This document shows, piece after piece, positions 1-47,383 of a stretch of 64,000 nt of DNA (the stretch's first letter is position 1; the number at the start of each line of letters is the position of its first letter). The translations under genes were made by a program, and so were the position numbers. A model generated the notes under the pieces. The model was not told where the DNA came from, did no database searches, and saw only the letters and a program-made list of their open reading frames with translations. This DNA is from Chiloscyllium plagiosum (taxonomy: Eukaryota). The DNA lies in the NCBI RefSeq assembly GCF_004010195.1, contig NC_057749.1, positions 19,298,432 to 19,362,431 of the forward strand, in the 5' to 3' direction.

Positions 1-172
1 CTCCCCTAGCTTATCTCTCCACACTTCAGGCTCTCTGCCTTTATTCCTGATGAAGGGCTTTTGCCCGAAACGTCGATTTCGCTGCTTGTTGAATGCTGCC
101 TGAATTGCTGTGCTCTTCCAGCACCACTGATCCAGAATCTGGTTTCCAGCATCTGCAGTTATTGTTTTTACC
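1..172 (+). mobile_element. 3' end (pLTR) of a Penelope-like element, family A
   Basis: Near-identical to 28460-28612, which lies downstream (across a gap) of PLE RT sequence, and to 35670-35765; contains a hammerhead motif. Confidence 0.8.
43..78 (+). ncRNA. Minimal type I hammerhead ribozyme motif (family A)
   Basis: attc-CTGATGA-a-GGGC tttt GCCC-GAAA-CGTC-gatt: intact core, stem II hairpin, palindromic ACGT stem III, GUC site. Confidence 0.7.
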
Positions 173-10249: not shown

Positions 10250-10483
10250 TAAGAAGAAAATACTGCAGATGCGGAAAATCTCAAGTAATATTGGAAAGTG
10301 CTGGACAAATTCAGCCAATTTGGCAACATCAGTGGAGAGAGAAAAATAGAATTGGTGTTCTGAGTCTAATATGATTCATTTCAGAAGAAGAGTCCTATTG
10401 GACTTGAAATGTTAACTTTCTTTCCTTCCACAGATGCTGCCAGACTTGCTGAGTTGCTCCAGCATTTTCTACTTTTATTTCAG
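10250..10483. mobile_element. Old palindromic PLE-derived element with a degenerate hammerhead
   Basis: Imperfect inverted arms around cagaagaa-GAGTC..GACTT-GAAA-tgtt; relatives at ~20255-20470, ~48180-48280 and ~54070-54150. Confidence 0.55.
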
Positions 10484-24558: not shown

Positions 24559-26940
24559 TAGAACATTGAACTGTACAGGCCCTTCGGCCCTTGATGTTGT
24601 GCCAACCTTTTATCCTACTCTAAGATCAAACAAACCTATGTACCCTTCATTTTATTATCTTCTATCCAAGAAGCACTTATCCAAGAGTCGCTTAAGTGTC
24701 CCTAATGTATCTGACTTTTCTACTGCTGTTGGCAGAGAATTCCATACACCCACCACTCTCTGTGCAAAGAAACTGCCTCTGACATTTCCCCTAAACCTTC
24801 CTCCAGTCACCATAAAATTATGACCCTCATGATAGCCATTTCTACATTGGGAAAATGTCTCTAGCTATCCACTTTATCTATTTCTCTCATCATCTTGTAC
24901 ACCTCTATCATGTCACCTCACAGCCGCCTTCGCTCCAATGAGAAAAGCCCTAGCTCCCTCAACCTTTCTTCACAAGACATGCCCTCCAGTCCAGGAAGCA
25001 TCCTGGTTAACCTCCTCTGCACTCTCTCTAAAGCTTCCACATCCTTCCTATAATGAGGCAACCAGAACTGAACACAATATTCAAAGTGTGGTCTAACCAA
25101 GGCTTTATAGAGCTGCAGCATACTACACGACTCTTAAACTCAGTCCTTCTGTTAATGAAAGCCAACACACCATACACCTTCTTAACAACCCTCTCAACTT
25201 GGGTGGCAACCTTGAGCGATCTATGGACGTGGACCCAAGATCCCTTTGTTGCTCCACACTGAATCCTGCCTTTAACCCTGTAATCTGCTTTCAAAATCGA
25301 CCTTCCAAGATGAATCACTTCACTCCTTTCCAAGTTGAACTCCATCTGCCACTTCTCAACACAGCTTTGCATCCTGTCAATGTCCCGTTGCAACTTACAA
25401 CAGCTCTCCACATTGTCCACCAATCTTCGTGTCATCGGTTAACTTATCAACCCACCCTTCCACTTCCTCATCCAAGTCAGTTATAAAACATCACAATGAG
25501 CTGAGGTCCTAGAACAGATTCCTGCAGAACACCACTGGTCACTGGACTCAGGCTGAATACTTTCCATCTACCACCACCCTCTGTCTTCTTTGGGCCAACC
25601 AGTTCTGTATCTAGACAGCCAAATTTCCCTGTATACCATACCTCCTTACTTTCTAAATGAACCTACCGTGGGAAACCTTATCAAACACCTTGCTAAAATC
25701 CATGTACATCACATCTACTGCTCTACCTTCATCAATGTGTTTTGTCACATCCTCAAAGAATTCAATAAGGTCTGTGAGGCATGACCTGCCCCTCACAAAG
25801 CCATGCTGACTATCTCTAATCAAACTAACCTTTTCCAAATGCTCATAAATTCTGTCTCTCAGAATCCTCTCCAATAATTTGCCCACCACTGACGAAGACT
25901 GACTGGTCTCTAATTCCCAAGATTATCCCTTTTCCCCTTCTTGATCAATGAATAACATTTGCCACCTTCCATTCATCTAGTACTACTCCAATGGACAGTG
26001 AGGATGCAAAGATTATCGCCAAAGGCATAGAAATTGCCACCTGTAGTAACCTTGGGTACATCCTGTCTGGGCAAGTGAGGACTGCAGATGCTGGAGATTG
26101 GAGTAGAGTGTGGTGCTGGAGAAGCACAGCAGGTCAGGCAGCATCTGAGGAGCAGGAAAATCAGGATGAAGGGCTTTTGCTGGAAACATCAATTTTCCTG
26201 CTCCTCAGATGCTGCCTGACCTGTGCTTTTCCAGCACCACACTCAACTCTACATCCAGTCTGGCCCAGGGGACTTTCAAATCGGTCTGTTTCACACTGTC
26301 CTCACAAATGACAAGGTCCCTGTTAGTAGTGAATACTGAAGTAAAATATTCATTAAGGACCACCCCTACCTCTTCAGACTCCAGGCACAAGTTTCCTCCA
26401 CTGTCCCTGATCAGCCTGACCCTCACTCTGGCCATCCTCTTGTTCCTCTCATAAGTGTAGAACGCCATGGGGTTTTCCTTAATCCTACCTGCCAAGGCTT
26501 TTTCATTCCCCCTTAATAGCTCTCCTAAGTCCATTGTTCAATTCCTTCCTGGCTACCTTGTAACCATCTAGAGCCCTGTCTGATTCTTATCTCCTCAACC
26601 TTAAGTAAGCTTCCTTCTTTGCCTTGACTAGATGTTCCACATCCCTTGTCGCCCAAGGTTCATTCAACTTAGCATTCCTTCCTTACCCCAGTCGGACAAA
26701 CCTATCCAGCACTATCAGCAAGTGCTCCCTAAACAACCTCCACATTTGTTGTGCATTTCTCTCAGAACATCTGTTCCCAAGTTATGCTCCACAGTTCCTA
26801 CCTAATAGCATTATAATTCCCCCTCTCCCAATTAAATACTTTCCCATACTGTCGGCTCTTATCCTTCTCCATAAGTATAGGAGAGGTTGGAGTTGCGATC
26901 ACTGTCACCAAAATGCTCTCCCACCACGACATCTGTCACC
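24559..26940 (-). mobile_element. 5'-truncated CR1-clade LINE
   Basis: SQHGFVRGRSCLT, DVMYMDFSK.FDKV.H and [17 protein letters not shown] motifs; CR1 tail. Confidence 0.92.
26071..26249. mobile_element. Palindromic family A element with a collapsed centre, inserted in a CR1
   Basis: 14-bp TSD tacatcc(t/a)gtctgg at 26057-26070 and 26250-26263; inverted arms; partial hammerhead. Confidence 0.8.
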
Positions 26941-36915: not shown

Positions 36916-37068
36916 AAAGTGGGTACTGTAGATGCTGGAGGTTAGAGTCAAGATTAGAGTGGTGCTGGAAAAGGACAGCAGGTCAGGCAGCATCCGAGGA
37001 GCAGGAAAATCGATGTTTCGGGCCAAAGCCCTTCATCAGGAATGGCCGGAAACGTCGATTTTCCTGCA
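36916..37068 (-). mobile_element. Family A pLTR with a short fold-back
   Basis: Minus-strand CTGATGA-a-GGGC tttg GCCC-GAAA followed by an inverted gaaacgtcgattttcctgc. Confidence 0.75.
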
Positions 37069-42916: not shown

Positions 42917-43596
42917 GTAGTATCTGTTTCATGACATTTACTTTGTTGTGTTGTTTGTTCTTTCTGCTTTGAGATTTCTCCGTTCCACAAAGAACTAAAG
43001 TTATGAAGCTCCGAAACTGAGCACTTTCAACCTTTGACACCACACACCCTATGGAATATAATGACTAGGGACTTTGAAAAAGTGCTTTGACCTTTCTTTT
43101 AACCACCTCTTCACACCACCCCTGAATTTCTTACCTGCCACTTGACTCTCCCTTCAGTGGTTGCATCAAGCTGGAAGTCATCCTGTACAGATTCATAGTC
43201 CAAATCACAGACCTATCCCACTGGCAGCATGGACCTTCTCATAGTGGTATGGAATGTGCAGTTCCTATGCGCAGGGAGTGTTGCAGGAAATCAGACCTCC
43301 AAGCTCTAGTTTGAGTAGGCTTCAAGAGTTAATCAATGGTGCTCCCCAAATGCATTACATGGGTATCACTGAATTACTGAAAATTTTCTAATGATTAATG
43401 TTACGGTAGCCATTTGCTGATTGTGCAGTTAAAGTTTTGGCACACATTGCAGAAATGAATAAAGTTTAGATTGACACGTGAGGTTTATGCTCAAAGTTTA
43501 AACACTCTTTCTCAGTATATTTGACTTTCCCATGAGTTGTGAGTAGTTTTCAAAACATGCTGCAATTTGAGACACTCTGTAATGCTGCACTATGTT

Positions 43597-43817
43597 AGTT
43601 GAAACTTTATTGCTGGAACAGCATAGCAGGTCAGGCAGCATCCAGGGAACAGGAGATTCGACGTTTCGGGCACAGGCCCTTCTTCAGGAATTCCTGAAGA
43701 AGGGCCTGTGCCCGAAACGTCGAATCTCCTGTTCCCTGGATGCTGCCTGACCTGCTGTGCTGTTCCAGCAATAAAGTTTCAACTTTGTGATCCAGCATCT
43801 GCAGACCTCACTTTCTC
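43597..43817. mobile_element. 188-bp near-perfect palindromic PLE-type insertion plus a 3' terminal tag
   Basis: 94-bp arms 43597-43690 and 43691-43784 with one mismatch; 17-bp TSD ctgcactatgttagttg at 43585-43601 and 43818-43834. Confidence 0.92.
43690..43725 (+). ncRNA. Minimal hammerhead ribozyme motif, intact (mirror copy at 43656-43691 on -)
   Basis: ATTC-CTGAAGA-a-GGGC ctgt GCCC-GAAA-CGTC-GAAT: perfect stem I, predicted cleavage after C43721. Confidence 0.75.
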
Positions 43818-44302
43818 CTGCACTATGTTAGTTGCTGAGTTTGAAACCTGACTGAAAGTGAGAATGTTGTAGCTTTTACAAGATGAGACCAGAACTGAGA
43901 AGTTCTGCCCCCCCCCCTCCCCATTGTCCGTAAAGCAAGATTGGAGGGGGAGCTGATTAGAGATCTTTAAGATAATTAAAGGCATAGACGTAGGGATCAT
44001 TTTTCCACATCTTGGGAAGACCCTAAGCTGATAGCCGTAAATGCAGTCACCAATAAATCTAAGAGGGAAACTATGAGAAACCTCTTTAGCCAGAGAACCT
44101 CCTGCCACAAGGAGTGTTTGGGGTGAATAGCGCACATGCATTTTGCGGGAATCCAGATACAAATATTGAGAAGGAAAAGATTGGGAAGTTTATGCTGAAT
44201 AGGATGAGTTGCAAAGGGGTGAGACAAGGCCCACATCAAGCACAAACATTAGTGTTGAGAGGCTAATTTTGTGTAATTTAATGTAACTATCACATTTCAC
44301 AG

Positions 44303-44388
44303 ACTGCTGCTCCTTAATCAGTTCCATGATGTGCTGCCTGGCACATGTATTCAGCCTGTAGTGGAAGATGCAGTAAAGTTCTATGAAG
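44303..44388 (+). CDS. MAN2C1: MAN2C1 exon (LLLLNQFHDVLPGTCIQPVVEDAVKFYE)
   Basis: tcacag|ACTG...GAAG|gtaagg; 86 nt; NQFHD metal-ligand motif. Confidence 0.96.
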
Positions 44389-44419: not shown

Positions 44420-46255
44420 TCTGCTGTTATGTTTAGAGAATGGACCTCTGTGTCACAGAGGCCAAACGCCAACTCTCCGACACCACATCCTACCTCCCCG
44501 TTGACCACAAGTCCACCATGGTCCATTAGGCCACTATTATCCACACTGTGACCTCATTGCTTATGGTGACTTCCCTCACAGACCCCCCAGCCCTACACTG
44601 CCCAGTTCTATCTGCCCCCCAAGATCCACAAGCCTGACTACCCCGGCCGACCCATCATCTCCACATGCTCCTGCCCCATTGAACTCATTTCTTGCTACCT
44701 TGACTCAATTCTCTCTATCCTTGGTTCTGGCAGTTCTAATCTACATCTGAGACACCGACCACGTCCTCCACCTCTTCGAAAACTTCCAGTTCCCGGCCTC
44801 CAGCGCTTCATCTTCACTCTAGATGTGCAGTCCTTATACACATCCATACCCAGCAATGATGGCCTGCAGGCCCTCAAGTTTCTTCTCCTCCAACAGATCC
44901 ATTAGGTCCCCCTCCACCATAGTCCTCACCCTCAATAACTTTTCCTTAAACTCTTCCCATTTCCTCCAAATTCAGGGAGTGGCCATGGGCACTCACATGG
45001 GCCCTAGCTTCGCCTGCCTCTTTGTTGGCCATGTCGAACAGTCCCTCTTCAGCATGTACACATGTGCTATTCCCCAACTCTTCCGCTGTTACTTTGATGA
45101 CAGTGTCAGTGTTCTGCACCCACGCTGAACTGGAGCAGTTCTTTTCACTTGGCCAACAATTTCCACCTTGCGCTCAAATTCACTTGGTCTATCTCAGACA
45201 ATTCCCTCCTCTTCCTTGACCTCTCCATTTCCATGTCTGACGGCTGTTTATGGACTGACACTTACTATAAACACACAGACTCCCATAACTACCTAGACTA
45301 CATCTCTTCCCACCCCGTATCCTGCAAAAACTCCATCCCGTTTTCCCAATTCCTTCATCTTCGTCACATCTGCTTTGACAAGGAGACGTTCCACTCCCAA
45401 GCATCCCAGAAGTCCACCTATTTTAAACAATGTGCTTCTTCCCCCTCTGTTATCCAGACAGTCCCCCACCGCACCTCCTCCATTCCCCACTCCACTGCTC
45501 TAAACCTCCACCACCCACCAAAAAAAATAAAGACAGGGTTCCCCTTGTCTTCACTTTGCACCCCACCCCCACCCCCCCAGTAGCTTCCTCTGCACCTGTA
45601 AAAGATGCAAAACTTGCCAGCACATCACCCCACTCACCTCCATCCAAGGTCCTAAACAATCCTTCCAGGTGAAACAAAGGTTCACCTGCCTCTCCTCCAA
45701 CCTAGATTACTGCATCCGGTGTTCCTGATATGGTCTTTTCTGCATTAGTGAGACCAAACGTAAACTAAGAGAACGTTCTGCTGAGCATCTCAGCCTGACA
45801 TCCTGGTTGCTGTCCATTTCAGTTCCCCCCCCCACTTCCTCTCTGACATGTCCATCCTCTGCCTCCTCCATTGCCACAGTGAATCAGATTGCAAATTGGA
45901 GGAATAATACCTTATCTTCCGCCTCGGCAGCCTACAGCCCGGAGGACTCAACATTGAGCTCTCCAATTTCAAATAACCTTCCCACCCATCACCCAACTCC
46001 CTTTCTAACCTGCCTCTTCCCTTCCATTCCACTTACCGACCCTTCCTTCCAGCTACCAACTGGATTCATCCCTCCCATTGACCAACCAGGTTGTACCCAT
46101 CACCTGCATTCACCCATCACTGCCTCACCATCCTGCCCCTCTCCCCACCCATAACCCTTCCCTCCATTCCTGAAGAAGTTATACCCGAAATGTCGACTTC
46201 TCCACCTCCTGATGGTGCCTAGCTTACTGTGTTCTTCCAGCCTCCTGCTTGTCTA
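44420..46255 (+). mobile_element. Decayed Penelope-like element: RT, GIY-YIG endonuclease and pLTR
   Basis: PKIHKP..GRPIIS, QIQGVAMGTHMGPSFACLFVG, PFSQFLHLRHIC, FTC.SSNL.YCIRC..ETKRKL.ER..EH; hammerhead remnant ~46165-46200. Confidence 0.9.
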
Positions 46256-46863: not shown

Positions 46864-47383
46864 GGAGAGAAAGTGAGGACTGCACCCATCAACCTCACTG
46901 CCCCATGGCTGAACATTTTAACTCCTCCTCCCACTCCATCAAGGACATGCAGGTCCTGGGCCGCCTCCATCGCCAAACAATTATAACCCAATGCCTGGAG
47001 GAAGAACGCCTCATATTCCACCTTGGGACCCTGCAACCACATGAGATGAATGTGGATTTCAACAGCTTCCTAATTTCTCCTCCCCCCGCATTATCCCAGT
47101 CCCAAGCCTCCAACTCTGCAACGCCCCCCTGACCTGTTCATCACCTTTCCCAACTATCCGCTGCACTTCTTTCCCCCCCCCACAACGACCTATCATCTCC
47201 CTCACCTTCATCTACCTATCGCTTTCTCAGCTATCCCCTTCCACCCCACCCCCCTGCCATTTATCTCTCAGCCCCCTGGCCCACAAGCCTCATTCCTGAT
47301 GAAGAGCTTATGCCCGAAACATCGATTCACCTGCTCCTCTTCGGATGCTGCCTGACCTGCTGTGCTTTTCCACTCTTGACCCC
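46864..47383 (+). mobile_element. PLE family A insertion with an inverted terminal tag
   Basis: 13-bp TSD ttgctttctccat at 46851-46863 and 47384-47396; LEEERLIFHLGTLQP; hammerhead motif ~47292-47328. Confidence 0.82.

What the first reader, a model, noticed from the sequence alone, without database searches (positions are those of the whole stretch)
43585..43834. Young 188-bp palindrome holding two back-to-back intact hammerhead ribozyme motifs in a MAN2C1 intron
Seen: 94-bp arms with one mismatch, axis at GGAA|TTCC (43690/43691), a 17-bp TSD, and on each strand ATTC-CUGAAGA-A-GGGC(cugu)GCCC-GAAA-CGUC-GAAU. Established: Penelope-like elements carry minimal type I hammerheads whose palindromic stem III (here ACGU) is thought to work as a dimer, and an extra A after A9 is a known natural core variant. 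Inference: this is a recent PLE-driven non-coding insertion. Transcription from either strand would give the same RNA, which must fold either as one long hairpin (ribozyme off; ADAR/Dicer substrate) or as a hammerhead. It lies about 470 nt upstream of the NQFHD exon.
Basis: partly seen in the sequence, partly recalled or inferred. Interest (0 to 1): 0.75.

Follow-up and report, generated by a model that had tools for sequence, protein, structure and literature searches.

The report
Young twin-arm Penelope retroelement insertion
This is a very recent, heavily shortened insertion of a Penelope-like retrotransposon whose two head-to-head copies form a perfect palindrome, a known by-product of how these elements integrate, so the finding is real but ordinary.

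Summary
There are 94-nt arms with one mismatch (T43624), the axis lies at 43690/43691, a 17-bp direct repeat flanks the whole, and each DNA strand carries one minimal hammerhead motif.

It is a 216-bp insertion (43602-43817) of an active, endonuclease-bearing Penelope-like element (PLE). It consists of a 127-nt direct 3' end (43691-43817) with a 33-nt "tail", plus a tail-less inverted copy.

This is the standard PLE architecture (Craig 2021). It fits the in-vitro finding that a PLE protein primes from both DNA strands at two adjacent start sites (Frangieh 2024).

Among 29 young copies sampled genome-wide:
- 15 have such an inverted arm.
- 14 of those 15 arms start at the tail-less site.
- 10 direct copies begin within 4 nt of the same point, the 5' edge of hammerhead helix I.
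- 6 repeat the same axis, at different target sites.

A contig in run X15 joins 43584 to 43818 directly, which is probably an empty allele.

The motif has every hallmark of PLE minimal hammerheads, and its helices covary across subfamilies. Rfam's hammerhead models do not detect it. Each transcript holds only one sense copy, locked in a -199 kcal/mol hairpin, so the ribozyme is almost certainly off here. Cleavage was not testable.

The parts
43585..43601 (.). Left copy of the target-site duplication (17 bp by exact repeat). Its last 4-5 nt (AGTTG) also match the start of the inverted arm, so the true duplication may be 12-17 bp.
   Evidence: direct repeat D1. The empty-site contig keeps one copy. 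Other copies of the family have exact flanking repeats of 8-18 nt.
43602..43690 (-). Inverted, tail-less copy of the PLE 3' module. It starts at the proximal initiation site (33-34 nt before the element's 3' end) and runs to the shared 5' end at the axis. It carries the one mismatch, T43624.
   Evidence: In 14 of 15 arms seen in 29 loci, the arm's outer end lies 29-34 nt before the 3' end.
43656..43691 (-). Minimal type I hammerhead motif on the minus strand (mirror image of the plus-strand one). The predicted cut lies after the C read from G43660.
   Evidence: match 43660-43687, minus strand. The position follows from the symmetry shown.
43691..43784 (+). Direct copy of the PLE 3' module, 5'-truncated at the family's hot spot. 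It is in the same orientation as the host gene.
   Evidence: 11 other places 100% identical over 127 nt.
43690..43725 (+). Minimal type I hammerhead motif. Helix I is AUUC/GAAU (43690-93 with 43722-25). The core is CUGAAGA (43694-43700) followed by the extra A43701. Helix II is GGGC/GCCC (43702-05 with 43710-13). Then come GAAA (43714-17) and the palindromic ACGU (43717-20). The predicted cut is after C43721.
   Evidence: covariation; conservation; hallmarks from PMC4209133. No Rfam hit. Cleavage was not tested.
43739..43757 (+). GATGCTGCCTGACCTGCTG, the most conserved block of the 3' module outside the hammerhead core. It is predicted to pair with CAGCAUCU in the tail. It may be the protein-binding or initiation structure (inferred).
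   Evidence: majority fraction 0.90 in 45-49 old copies; predicted 8-bp long-range stem.
43770..43775 (+). AATAAA hexamer inside the element, in the sense orientation of the host gene.
   Evidence: read from the sequence. Its function was not tested.
43785..43817 (+). The 33-nt 'tail', present only on the direct copy. The 3' end is ambiguous by 2 nt (up to 43819).
   Evidence: Family contigs diverge at 43783/43784 or at 43819 (loose ends). The 'tail' concept comes from PMC8557442 and PMC11167929.
43818..43834 (.). Right copy of the target-site duplication.
44301..44388 (+). Host exon (LLLNQFHDVLPG...) of a class-C, Ams1/MAN2C1-like alpha-mannosidase, 467 nt downstream of the insertion.
   Evidence: frame; PF09261, E 4.8e-8; Ams1 6lz1, E 3.9e-4; spliced contigs cover exactly 44301-44388.

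Best explanation
This is a dead-on-arrival, 216-bp insertion made by a currently or very recently active endonuclease-bearing Penelope-like element. The proposed sequence of events is as follows. The element's RT-endonuclease nicked both strands of the intron about 13-17 bp apart. Each 3'-OH then primed reverse transcription of a short RNA of about 128 nt, consisting of the element's 3' module. One cDNA started at the distal initiation site, which gives the 33-nt tail. The other started at the proximal site 33-34 nt upstream, here helped by a 5-nt match (AGTTG) with the target. Both cDNAs ran to the same RNA 5' end (A43690/T43691, the first base of hammerhead helix I). Their ends were then joined and filled in. 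The result is a perfect palindrome flanked by a target-site duplication. What is shown: the anatomy, its recurrence at independent sites, the link to a GIY-YIG frame, and the precise empty site. What is taken from the literature for another PLE (Anolis PAc): cleavage and extension of both strands, and two adjacent internal start sites. What is inferred: the order of events, and that the hot spot is an RNA 5' end. The hammerhead motif is a conserved, selected part of the element's 3' module. At this locus it is inert, because any transcript that spans the palindrome, including the host pre-mRNA, makes the antisense arm first and zips into a 92-bp hairpin.
For:: the palindrome and the direct repeat; the 127-nt right half is 100% identical at 11 other places (40 of 180 candidates were scored). 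Searches cover 30 loci fetched with the last 66 nt as query, of which 29 were analysable. An adjacent inverted arm occurs in 15 of 29. The arm's outer end lies 29-34 nt before the 3' end in 14 of 15. The direct copy's 5' end lies 125-128 nt from the 3' end in 10 of 29. The arm's inner end lies at 124-129 in 8 of 15. Both ends lie there in 6 of 29, which is the same axis as in the window. Exact flanking repeats of 8-18 nt are found in 18 of 29, all different, so these are independent events. Junction fillers differ between copies (CA, CCT, AG). The two arms end more than 10 nt apart in 6 of 15, which fits two separate cDNAs and not a snap-back; 22 head-to-head pairs among 110 family hits, 0 tail-to-tail pairs, and no pair with a tail on both arms; longer copies run upstream into a frame ending ...RLIFRLGTLQPQGMNLDF, with a GIY-YIG hit (PF01541, 23.0 bits, cut-off 22.6). 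X15 contig record 1 (623 nt, depth 14.3) joins 43584 to 43818 with nothing between; the published PLE architecture and the in-vitro two-strand, two-site initiation. Hammerhead evidence: one search finds 85.9% of 396 cells paired (7.6-46.5% when the partners are slid), 5 of 8 pairs with changes on both sides, and 20 compensatory cells (0 of 500 shuffles reach this). One search gives the conservation profile; hairpin -198.9 kcal/mol against -137.8 with the hammerhead stems forced.
Against: No Rfam hammerhead model matches, and no cleavage data exist for this sequence. The parent's reverse-transcriptase domain was not confirmed by Pfam (0 families for the fragments tried), and no intact full-length copy was found in the loci examined. 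In vitro, PAc showed no difference in start site between the two strands, so that work does not predict the strict one-tail asymmetry seen here. Run X15 appears to hold RNA (a spliced exon contig). The 'empty site' could therefore in principle be a reverse-transcriptase jump between the two 17-nt repeats; four linked differences in its flanks (43438, 43439, 43909, 43910) argue for a real allele. The sample of 29 comes from the 40 best-scoring of 132 candidates and is a lower bound, not a census. The cause of the 5' hot spot is not established.
Confidence: 0.85

Rival explanations
1. The palindrome is itself the mobile unit: a non-autonomous foldback or MITE-like element (or a palindromic master copy) that is copied whole.
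For: The same axis and near-identical 216-bp structure recur at 5 other places among 29 sampled copies.
Against: Junctions differ between copies (no filler, CA, CCT, AG). Arm lengths vary (inner ends at 76, 113, 119-121, 395). 14 of 29 copies have no arm. The two ends are asymmetric, with a tail on one side only. Flanking repeats vary from 8 to 18 nt rather than having the fixed size usual for DNA transposons (recalled). Longer copies continue into a GIY-YIG frame.
Confidence: 0.05
2. The inverted arm arose by snap-back. A single cDNA reached the RNA 5' end, folded back and copied itself, rather than being joined to a second, independently primed cDNA.
For: The axis is seamless in the window and in L020. 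L010 has only a 24-nt inverted piece next to the junction, which does not reach the proximal start site.
Against: Snap-back predicts that both arms end at the same point. In 6 of 15 pairs they differ by more than 10 nt (95/395, 127/76, 92/127, 69/113, 92/119, 133/119). It also does not explain why 14 of 15 arms stop exactly at the tail-less site, which matches one of two initiation sites of the kind mapped in vitro.
Confidence: 0.06
3. The locus is a functional hairpin-RNA gene (a miRNA precursor of the mir-3179 type, or an ADAR/Dicer substrate) or a regulated ribozyme switch acting on the host pre-mRNA.
For: Rfam mir-3179 scores 68.2 bits (E 6.3e-13) on 43650-43731. The RNA would fold into a 92-bp perfect hairpin with z = -25. 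The element lies in sense orientation in an intron 467 nt from an exon and carries AATAAA.
Against: The score is below the family's gathering score of 90. A perfect palindrome earns pair scores from any hairpin model, so the E-value is inflated. The structure is one of many near-identical copies and is probably not fixed. No RNA evidence could be obtained.
Confidence: 0.03
4. The 'hammerhead' is not a working ribozyme in this family. It would instead be a conserved RNA element kept for another role, such as protein binding, RNA dimerisation through the palindromic ACGU, or a promoter element.
For: PLE minimal hammerheads cleave poorly in vitro (PMC4209133). The PAc motif cleaves only with protein, is dispensable for insertion, and no RNA-seq reads end at its cut site (PMC11167929). 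Here only 1 of 29 direct copies starts at the predicted cleavage product's 5' end (L015), and Rfam models fail.
Against: The conservation pattern is that of a catalytic core: CUGA 0.91, GA 0.93, GAAA 0.92, and N7 free at 0.49. Both helices covary. In PAc, C3G and G8C abolish cleavage and the double mutant partly rescues it.
Confidence: 0.25

Closest known systems
Canonical insertion architecture of endonuclease-bearing Penelope-like elements (Craig et al. 2021, PMC8557442; passages read)
   Same: High 5' truncation; an inverted 5'-truncated copy directly adjacent at the 5' end; a 30-40 bp tail at one end only; a hammerhead in the terminal non-coding region.
   Different: Here the truncation is extreme (127 nt, no coding sequence), so the two arms make an almost perfect 188-bp palindrome. 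The truncation point is also a recurrent hot spot at the hammerhead's 5' edge, which the passages I read do not mention.
PAc, the Poseidon element of Anolis carolinensis (Frangieh et al. 2024, PMC11167929; main text read)
   Same: Both DNA strands are cleaved and extended. There are two adjacent internal RT start sites whose spacing equals the tail. The hammerhead lies roughly 60-90 nt upstream of the start sites. Hammerhead cleavage is not needed for insertion.
   Different: In PAc the hammerhead overlaps the start of the ORF; here it lies in the 3' non-coding region, about 155 nt after the stop codon. In vitro, start-site use did not differ between strands, whereas these genomic insertions carry exactly one tail. 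PAc initiation showed no homology to the target, whereas this copy has a 5-nt match.
Minimal hammerheads of metazoan PLEs (Cervera & de la Pena 2014, PMC4209133; passages read)
   Same: Type I topology; helix I of 4 bp; an unpaired nucleotide between A9 and G10.1; a G10.1-C11.1 pair; a palindromic 15.2-16.2 (ACGU); many covarying consensus families in one genome. Dual motifs on opposite strands 100-700 bp apart were noted there too.
   Different: Helix II is 4-5 bp here, against 7-8 bp in the Schistosoma families. The two motifs are back to back at zero distance.
Drosophila virilis Penelope (Schostak et al. 2008, PMC2377424; passages read)
   Same: Frequent copies are flanked by inverted terminal repeats of variable size. 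It has an internal, TATA-less, LINE-like promoter, which sets a precedent for a start site inside the terminal repeat.
   Different: That element has an intron between the start site and the hammerhead. No splice acceptor is seen at the boundary here (TC, not AG, precedes ATTCC).
Animal non-LTR retrozymes (Cervera & de la Pena 2020, search listing only; Li et al. 2026 bioRxiv 10.64898/2026.07.22.740005, abstract and one section read)
   Same: Short non-coding hammerhead-bearing sequences derived from PLE terminal regions and mobilised by PLEs.
   Different: Retrozymes are direct tandem repeats that can give circular RNAs. This is an inverted pair with one sense motif per strand. According to that preprint, retrozymes are excluded from introns, whereas this copy is intronic.

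Membership tests
Endonuclease-bearing Penelope-like element (insertion of) | Sequence continuity with an element that encodes a C-terminal GIY-YIG endonuclease | tested here: met
   Copies identical over the last 156 nt continue upstream into a frame with a GIY-YIG hit (PF01541, 23.0 bits against cut-off 22.6, E 1e-4; L040:529-921:-).
Endonuclease-bearing Penelope-like element (insertion of) | PLE-type (telomerase-like) reverse transcriptase in the same ORF | tested here: inconclusive
   The copies examined are 5'-truncated or frameshifted. Pfam gave no RT family for the fragments tried. RT-like motifs were recognised by eye only (recalled).
Endonuclease-bearing Penelope-like element (insertion of) | 5' truncation with an adjacent inverted 5'-truncated copy | tested here: met
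   True in the window and in 15 of 29 young copies. There are 22 head-to-head pairs and 0 tail-to-tail pairs among 110 hits.
Endonuclease-bearing Penelope-like element (insertion of) | [quoted passage not shown] | tested here: met
   A 33-nt tail (43785-43817) on the direct copy only. 14 of 15 arms start 29-34 nt before the 3' end, and no pair has two tails.
Endonuclease-bearing Penelope-like element (insertion of) | Target-site duplication of variable length flanking the whole unit | tested here: met
   17 bp here. 8-18 bp, all different, in 18 of 29 copies. A precise empty site.
PLE minimal hammerhead ribozyme (type I) | Conserved core CUGANGA ... GAAA with a cleavable UH site | tested here: met
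   CUGAAGA, GAAA and GUC|G on both strands. Across 51 older copies: CUGA 0.91, N7 0.49, GA+A 0.93, GAAA 0.92, against 0.62-0.71 in loop II and flanks.
PLE minimal hammerhead ribozyme (type I) | An unpaired nucleotide between A9 and G10.1, a G10.1-C11.1 pair, and a palindromic 15.2-16.2 | tested here: met
   A43701; G43702-C43713; ACGU at 43717-43720. In alignment A1 the 10.1-11.1 pair is GC in 38 rows, GU in 5 and AU in 1 of 50. The hallmarks are as listed in PMC4209133.
PLE minimal hammerhead ribozyme (type I) | Helices I and II supported by compensatory change | tested here: met
   5 of 8 pairs have changes on both sides, with 20 compensatory cells (0 of 500 shuffles reach this). Helix I occurs as AUUC/GAAU, AGUU/AACU, GGUC/GACU and AGCU/AGCU in different subfamilies. 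All 50 rows were kept, including dead and junction-truncated copies. One helix I pair is unpaired in 23 of 50 rows.
PLE minimal hammerhead ribozyme (type I) | Match to a curated hammerhead covariance model (Rfam) | tested here: not met
   No hammerhead family at E<=10 on 2.5 kb or on 61 nt. There are 0 gathering-level hits in 64 kb although the window holds a dozen copies. As far as I could see, the curated models do not cover these minimal forms.
PLE minimal hammerhead ribozyme (type I) | Self-cleavage at the predicted site | not testable with these tools
   No raw RNA reads were laid (X20: 0 reads). Published relatives cleave weakly, either as dimers or with protein.
mir-3179 microRNA precursor family (RF02021) | Score at or above the family's gathering threshold | tested here: not met
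   68.2 bits against 90.
Non-LTR retrozyme | Direct tandem repeats, each with a sense hammerhead, able to give unit-length circular RNA | tested here: not met
   The two copies are inverted. Each strand has a single sense motif.

The most novel reading that the evidence does not exclude
The recurrent axis marks the 5' end of a discrete hammerhead-led RNA of about 128 nt. This RNA would be transcribed from a LINE-like internal or proximal promoter; the boundary CTCA|TTCC fits an initiator motif, and D. virilis Penelope is known to have an internal promoter. It would be the family's preferred template. Two such RNAs, held together in the dimeric RT-endonuclease through the palindromic ACGU of the minimal hammerhead, would be copied from the two nicked strands at once. 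That would explain three things: why PLE hammerheads keep a palindromic helix III yet cleave poorly, why insertions carry exactly one tail, and why PLEs keep seeding perfect long hairpins in host introns. Such hairpins are raw material for new hairpin-RNA genes; compare the sub-threshold mir-3179 match.
Probability: 0.1. Interest if true: 0.65.

Novelty: new member of a known kind. Interest (0 to 1): 0.3.

Why it matters
For the locus itself the importance is small. It is one more dead PLE fragment, although it is very young, probably still segregating, and sits in sense orientation in an intron of an alpha-mannosidase gene with a polyadenylation hexamer and a 92-bp hairpin. It could therefore serve as a natural test of what such an insertion does to a host transcript.

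For PLE biology the family-level regularities are more useful. They give genomic support, in a second animal genome, for the two-strand, two-start-site model so far shown only in vitro for an Anolis element. They add a strict one-tail rule and a 5'-end hot spot at the hammerhead's edge, and any mechanism must explain both. They also show that curated hammerhead models miss these motifs entirely.

Tried and rejected
- **Rfam.** Hammerhead models found nothing at any threshold.
- **RNA runs.** No RNA holder is listed for the stretch. The raw single-cell RNA run X20 laid 0 reads, so it gives no test of expression, RNA ends or editing. Logan contigs cannot show RNA starts or ends, so the transcription-start-site idea and in-vivo cleavage remain untested.
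- **Full-length parent.** Three loci were examined (L039, L040, L041). All are truncated, frameshifted or masked. The long ORFs first picked in L040 and L041 were wrong-frame artefacts with no Pfam hit.
- **Second hammerhead or splice acceptor at the 5' hot spot.** Rejected: no core follows a GGAAU partner, and TC rather than AG precedes the boundary (read).
- **Microhomology as the cause of the hot spot.** Rejected: the parent sequence has no palindrome there, and only a 2-nt AT overlap is possible.
- **Hammerhead-cleaved RNA as the template.** Only 1 of 29 copies starts at the predicted product's 5' end, which is about what chance gives.
- **mir-3179 origin.** One literature search found nothing relevant. 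By my count from the alignment, 19 of about 38 positions per arm are identical, which is not convincing once the perfect pairing is discounted.
- **Earlier notes of this scan.** No note exists on this genome or on this sequence.
Full report
**What is there.**
- Positions 43597-43690 and 43691-43784 are 94-nt inverted arms with no spacer and 99% complementarity. The single mismatch is T43624 opposite G43757, and other copies of the family have C there.
- The 17-mer CTGCACTATGTTAGTTG flanks the structure at 43585-43601 and 43818-43834.
- The string CTGAAGA-A-GGGC-CTGT-GCCC-GAAA-CGTC lies at 43694-43721 on the plus strand and at 43687-43660 on the minus strand. The pattern gives 3 matches in the window against 0.00 expected from 100 shuffles.
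- The downstream exon (44301-44388, plus strand, LLLNQFHDVLPG...) hits the alpha-mannosidase middle domain. Its best solved relatives are Ams1-type enzymes. Spliced contigs cover exactly those coordinates.
- The name MAN2C1 rests on that evidence and on my recollection of the motif.

**Three corrections.**
- The outer AGTTG of the left arm belongs to the duplicated target.
- The insertion is 216 bp (43602-43817), and its last 33 nt lie outside the palindrome.
- Each transcript would contain only one sense hammerhead, preceded by its perfect complement.

**It is a copy of a young repeat.**
- The right half (43691-43817) is 100% identical over all 127 nt at 11 other places in the 3.56-Gb genome. 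This count is a lower bound, because only 40 of 180 first-look candidates were scored.
- Longer copies with the same 3' end continue upstream into a reading frame that ends ...RLIFRLGTLQPQGMNLDF and carries a GIY-YIG domain (PF01541, 23.0 bits, cut-off 22.6).
- The parent is therefore an endonuclease-bearing Penelope-like element (PLE), with the hammerhead about 155 nt after the stop codon, in the 3' non-coding region.
- I did not find an intact full-length copy, and Pfam did not confirm the RT domain on the fragments I tried.

**The palindrome is the element's normal footprint.**
I fetched 30 loci using only the last 66 nt as the query, so the sample is not biased by how far a copy extends 5'. 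Of these, 29 were analysable.

| Feature | Count |
|---|---|
| Inverted copy directly adjacent to the 5' end of the direct copy | 15 of 29 |
| Inverted copy begins 29-34 nt before the element's 3' end (lacks the last ~33 nt) | 14 of those 15 |
| Direct copy starts 125-128 nt from the 3' end | 10 of 29 |
| Inverted arm ends at 124-129 | 8 of 15 |
| Both of the above, giving the same axis as in the window | 6 of 29 (window included) |
| Exact flanking repeats of 8-18 nt, all different | 18 of 29 |

- The junctions differ in detail: some have no filler, others have CA, CCT or AG. These are independent insertions, not copies of one palindromic master.
- A profile search of about 215 kb (window plus loci) found 110 family hits. 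They include 22 head-to-head pairs, 0 tail-to-tail pairs, and no pair with the terminal 33 nt on both arms. Eight of the pairs are old, diverged copies. Two of those lie in this window, at 26072-26258 and 10261-10471.

**Match to the literature.**
- Craig et al. 2021 (PMC8557442, passages read) describe PLE insertions as highly 5'-truncated. They often have an inverted 5'-truncated copy adjacent at the 5' end and a 30-40 bp 'tail' at one end only.
- Frangieh et al. 2024 (PMC11167929, main text read) showed that the Anolis PAc protein cleaves and extends both DNA strands. It starts reverse transcription at two adjacent internal sites whose spacing is the tail.
- The window's structure is what that model predicts if both cDNAs run to the end of a short template.
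- The two arms end more than 10 nt apart in 6 of 15 pairs. This fits two independent cDNAs and argues against a single snap-back strand.
- Two points go beyond what I read in those papers: the strict one-tail asymmetry, and the 5'-end hot spot exactly at the first base of hammerhead helix I.
- The hot spot is best read as the 5' end of a common template RNA of about 128 nt. The boundary CTCA|TTCC resembles an initiator (recalled consensus). D. virilis Penelope has an internal LINE-like promoter (PMC2377424, passages read). I could not test this reading.
- The hot spot is not the hammerhead cut site. Only 1 of 29 copies (L015) starts there, which is about what chance gives.

**Age.**
- There is at most one substitution in 216 nt.
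- In run X15 a 623-nt contig (depth 14.3) aligns to 43400-43584 and then directly to 43818-44006, so it lacks the insertion and one repeat copy exactly. It differs from the window at four linked flank positions.
- That run also holds a spliced contig of the exon, so it is probably RNA. A reverse-transcriptase jump between the 17-nt repeats cannot be fully excluded, but the linked differences favour a real empty allele.

**The hammerhead.**
- The motif has every hallmark that Cervera and de la Pena 2014 (PMC4209133, passages read) list for PLE minimal hammerheads:
  - a nucleotide between A9 and G10.1 (so the 'extra A' is the rule, not an oddity);
  - a G10.1-C11.1 pair;
  - a palindromic 15.2-16.2 (ACGU);
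  - a helix I of 4 bp.
- I aligned 50 distinct copies of the region from the window and loci, including dead and junction-truncated ones, and counted the named structure:
  - 85.9% of 396 cells are paired, against 7.6-46.5% when partners are slid.
  - 5 of 8 pairs show changes on both sides.
  - There are 20 compensatory cells, a value reached by 0 of 500 shuffles.
  - One helix I pair is unpaired in 23 of 50 rows; this is a U-U mismatch typical of one subfamily.
- Across 51 older copies the majority fractions are as follows:

| Segment | Majority fraction |
|---|---|
| CUGA | 0.91 |
| N7 | 0.49 |
| GA plus the extra A | 0.93 |
| GAAA | 0.92 |
| Stems | 0.70-0.79 |
| Loop II | 0.62 |
| Flanks | about 0.68-0.71 |

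- Two other blocks are equally conserved: GATGCTGCCTGACCTGCTG (0.90) and the tail (0.87). They are predicted to pair.
- Against membership, no Rfam hammerhead model matches at any threshold. Activity is also unknown. Published relatives cleave weakly, as dimers or with protein, and cleavage is dispensable for insertion.

**Behaviour at this locus.**
- RNA of 43597-43819 folds into one 92-bp hairpin at -198.9 kcal/mol (z = -25).
- Forcing the hammerhead stems costs about 61 kcal/mol, giving -137.8. The isolated 45-nt motif has only -7.8 kcal/mol in stems I and II. The single arm is no more stable than shuffled sequence (z = -0.9).
- In either transcript the antisense arm is made first and the hairpin nucleates at the axis, so the ribozyme should be off. 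This is inferred.
- The sub-threshold mir-3179 match (68.2 bits against 90) mostly reflects perfect pairing, and I treat it only as a lead.

**Verdict.**
This is a real, clean and very young example of a known kind. The interest lies in the family-level regularities rather than in the locus.

Noticed in passing
window 43650-43731: Rfam mir-3179 (a miRNA precursor family) scores 68.2 bits (E 6.3e-13, gathering score 90) on the palindrome's centre. Exact matches are concentrated in CAGGA and GACGUUU/AAACGUC. The match may be chance inflated by perfect pairing, or it may hint that some hairpin-RNA genes descend from such twin-arm insertions. One literature search found nothing on this.
   Followed up: partly
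window 26072-26258 and 10261-10471: Two older, diverged head-to-head pairs of the same 3' module lie in the same window. Each has the terminal ~30 nt on one arm only.
   Followed up: partly
window 43739-43757 and 43792-43801: GATGCTGCCTGACCTGCTG and the tail (CCAGCATCTGCAG...) are as conserved across old subfamilies (0.90 and 0.87) as the hammerhead core. They are predicted to form an 8-bp long-range stem that encloses a small hairpin at the proximal start site. This is a candidate RT-binding or initiation structure. Its covariation was not tested.
   Followed up: partly
loci L011/L016 versus L013, L015, L021, L031, L034, L036 (genome G000): Two PLE lineages share the last 156 nt at about 100% identity but have unrelated sequence upstream of that point. 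One of them (L011) has a frameshifted, older-looking ORF. This suggests either exchange of the 3' module between lineages or insertion of a 156-nt copy next to an older element.
   Followed up: partly
window 43597-43601 / 43830-43834: The target's own AGTTG matches the first 5 nt of the inverted arm, at the proximal initiation site. This may mean priming was helped by microhomology. In vitro, PAc initiation was reported as not homologous to the target.
   Followed up: no
window 44570-44905 (+): An open frame (PPKIHKPDYPGRPIIS...FTLDVQSLYTSIP...) looks like the N-terminal part of a PLE-type reverse transcriptase (motif recalled). Pfam gave no hit at E<=0.01. It appears to be another PLE fragment in the next intron.
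   Followed up: partly
window 43770-43775: The insertion brings an AATAAA hexamer into the intron, in the sense orientation of the host gene.
   Followed up: no
window 47-74, 37001-37047 (-), 47290-47334: Older subfamily copies carry the canonical CUGAUGA core with the same extra A. Several have GAAACATC or GAAATGTC, which looks like CpG decay of the palindromic ACGU.
   Followed up: partly
locus L015 (G000:C35): This is the one young copy whose direct arm starts exactly at the predicted 5' end of the hammerhead cleavage product. It is paired with a long inverted arm of more than 360 nt. As 1 of 29, it is compatible with chance.
   Followed up: no
window 43686-43730: In palindromic copies the left arm supplies AGGA, which can pair with UCCU downstream. 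This extends helix I from 4 to 8 bp with one bulge (-12.0 against -7.8 kcal/mol).
   Followed up: no
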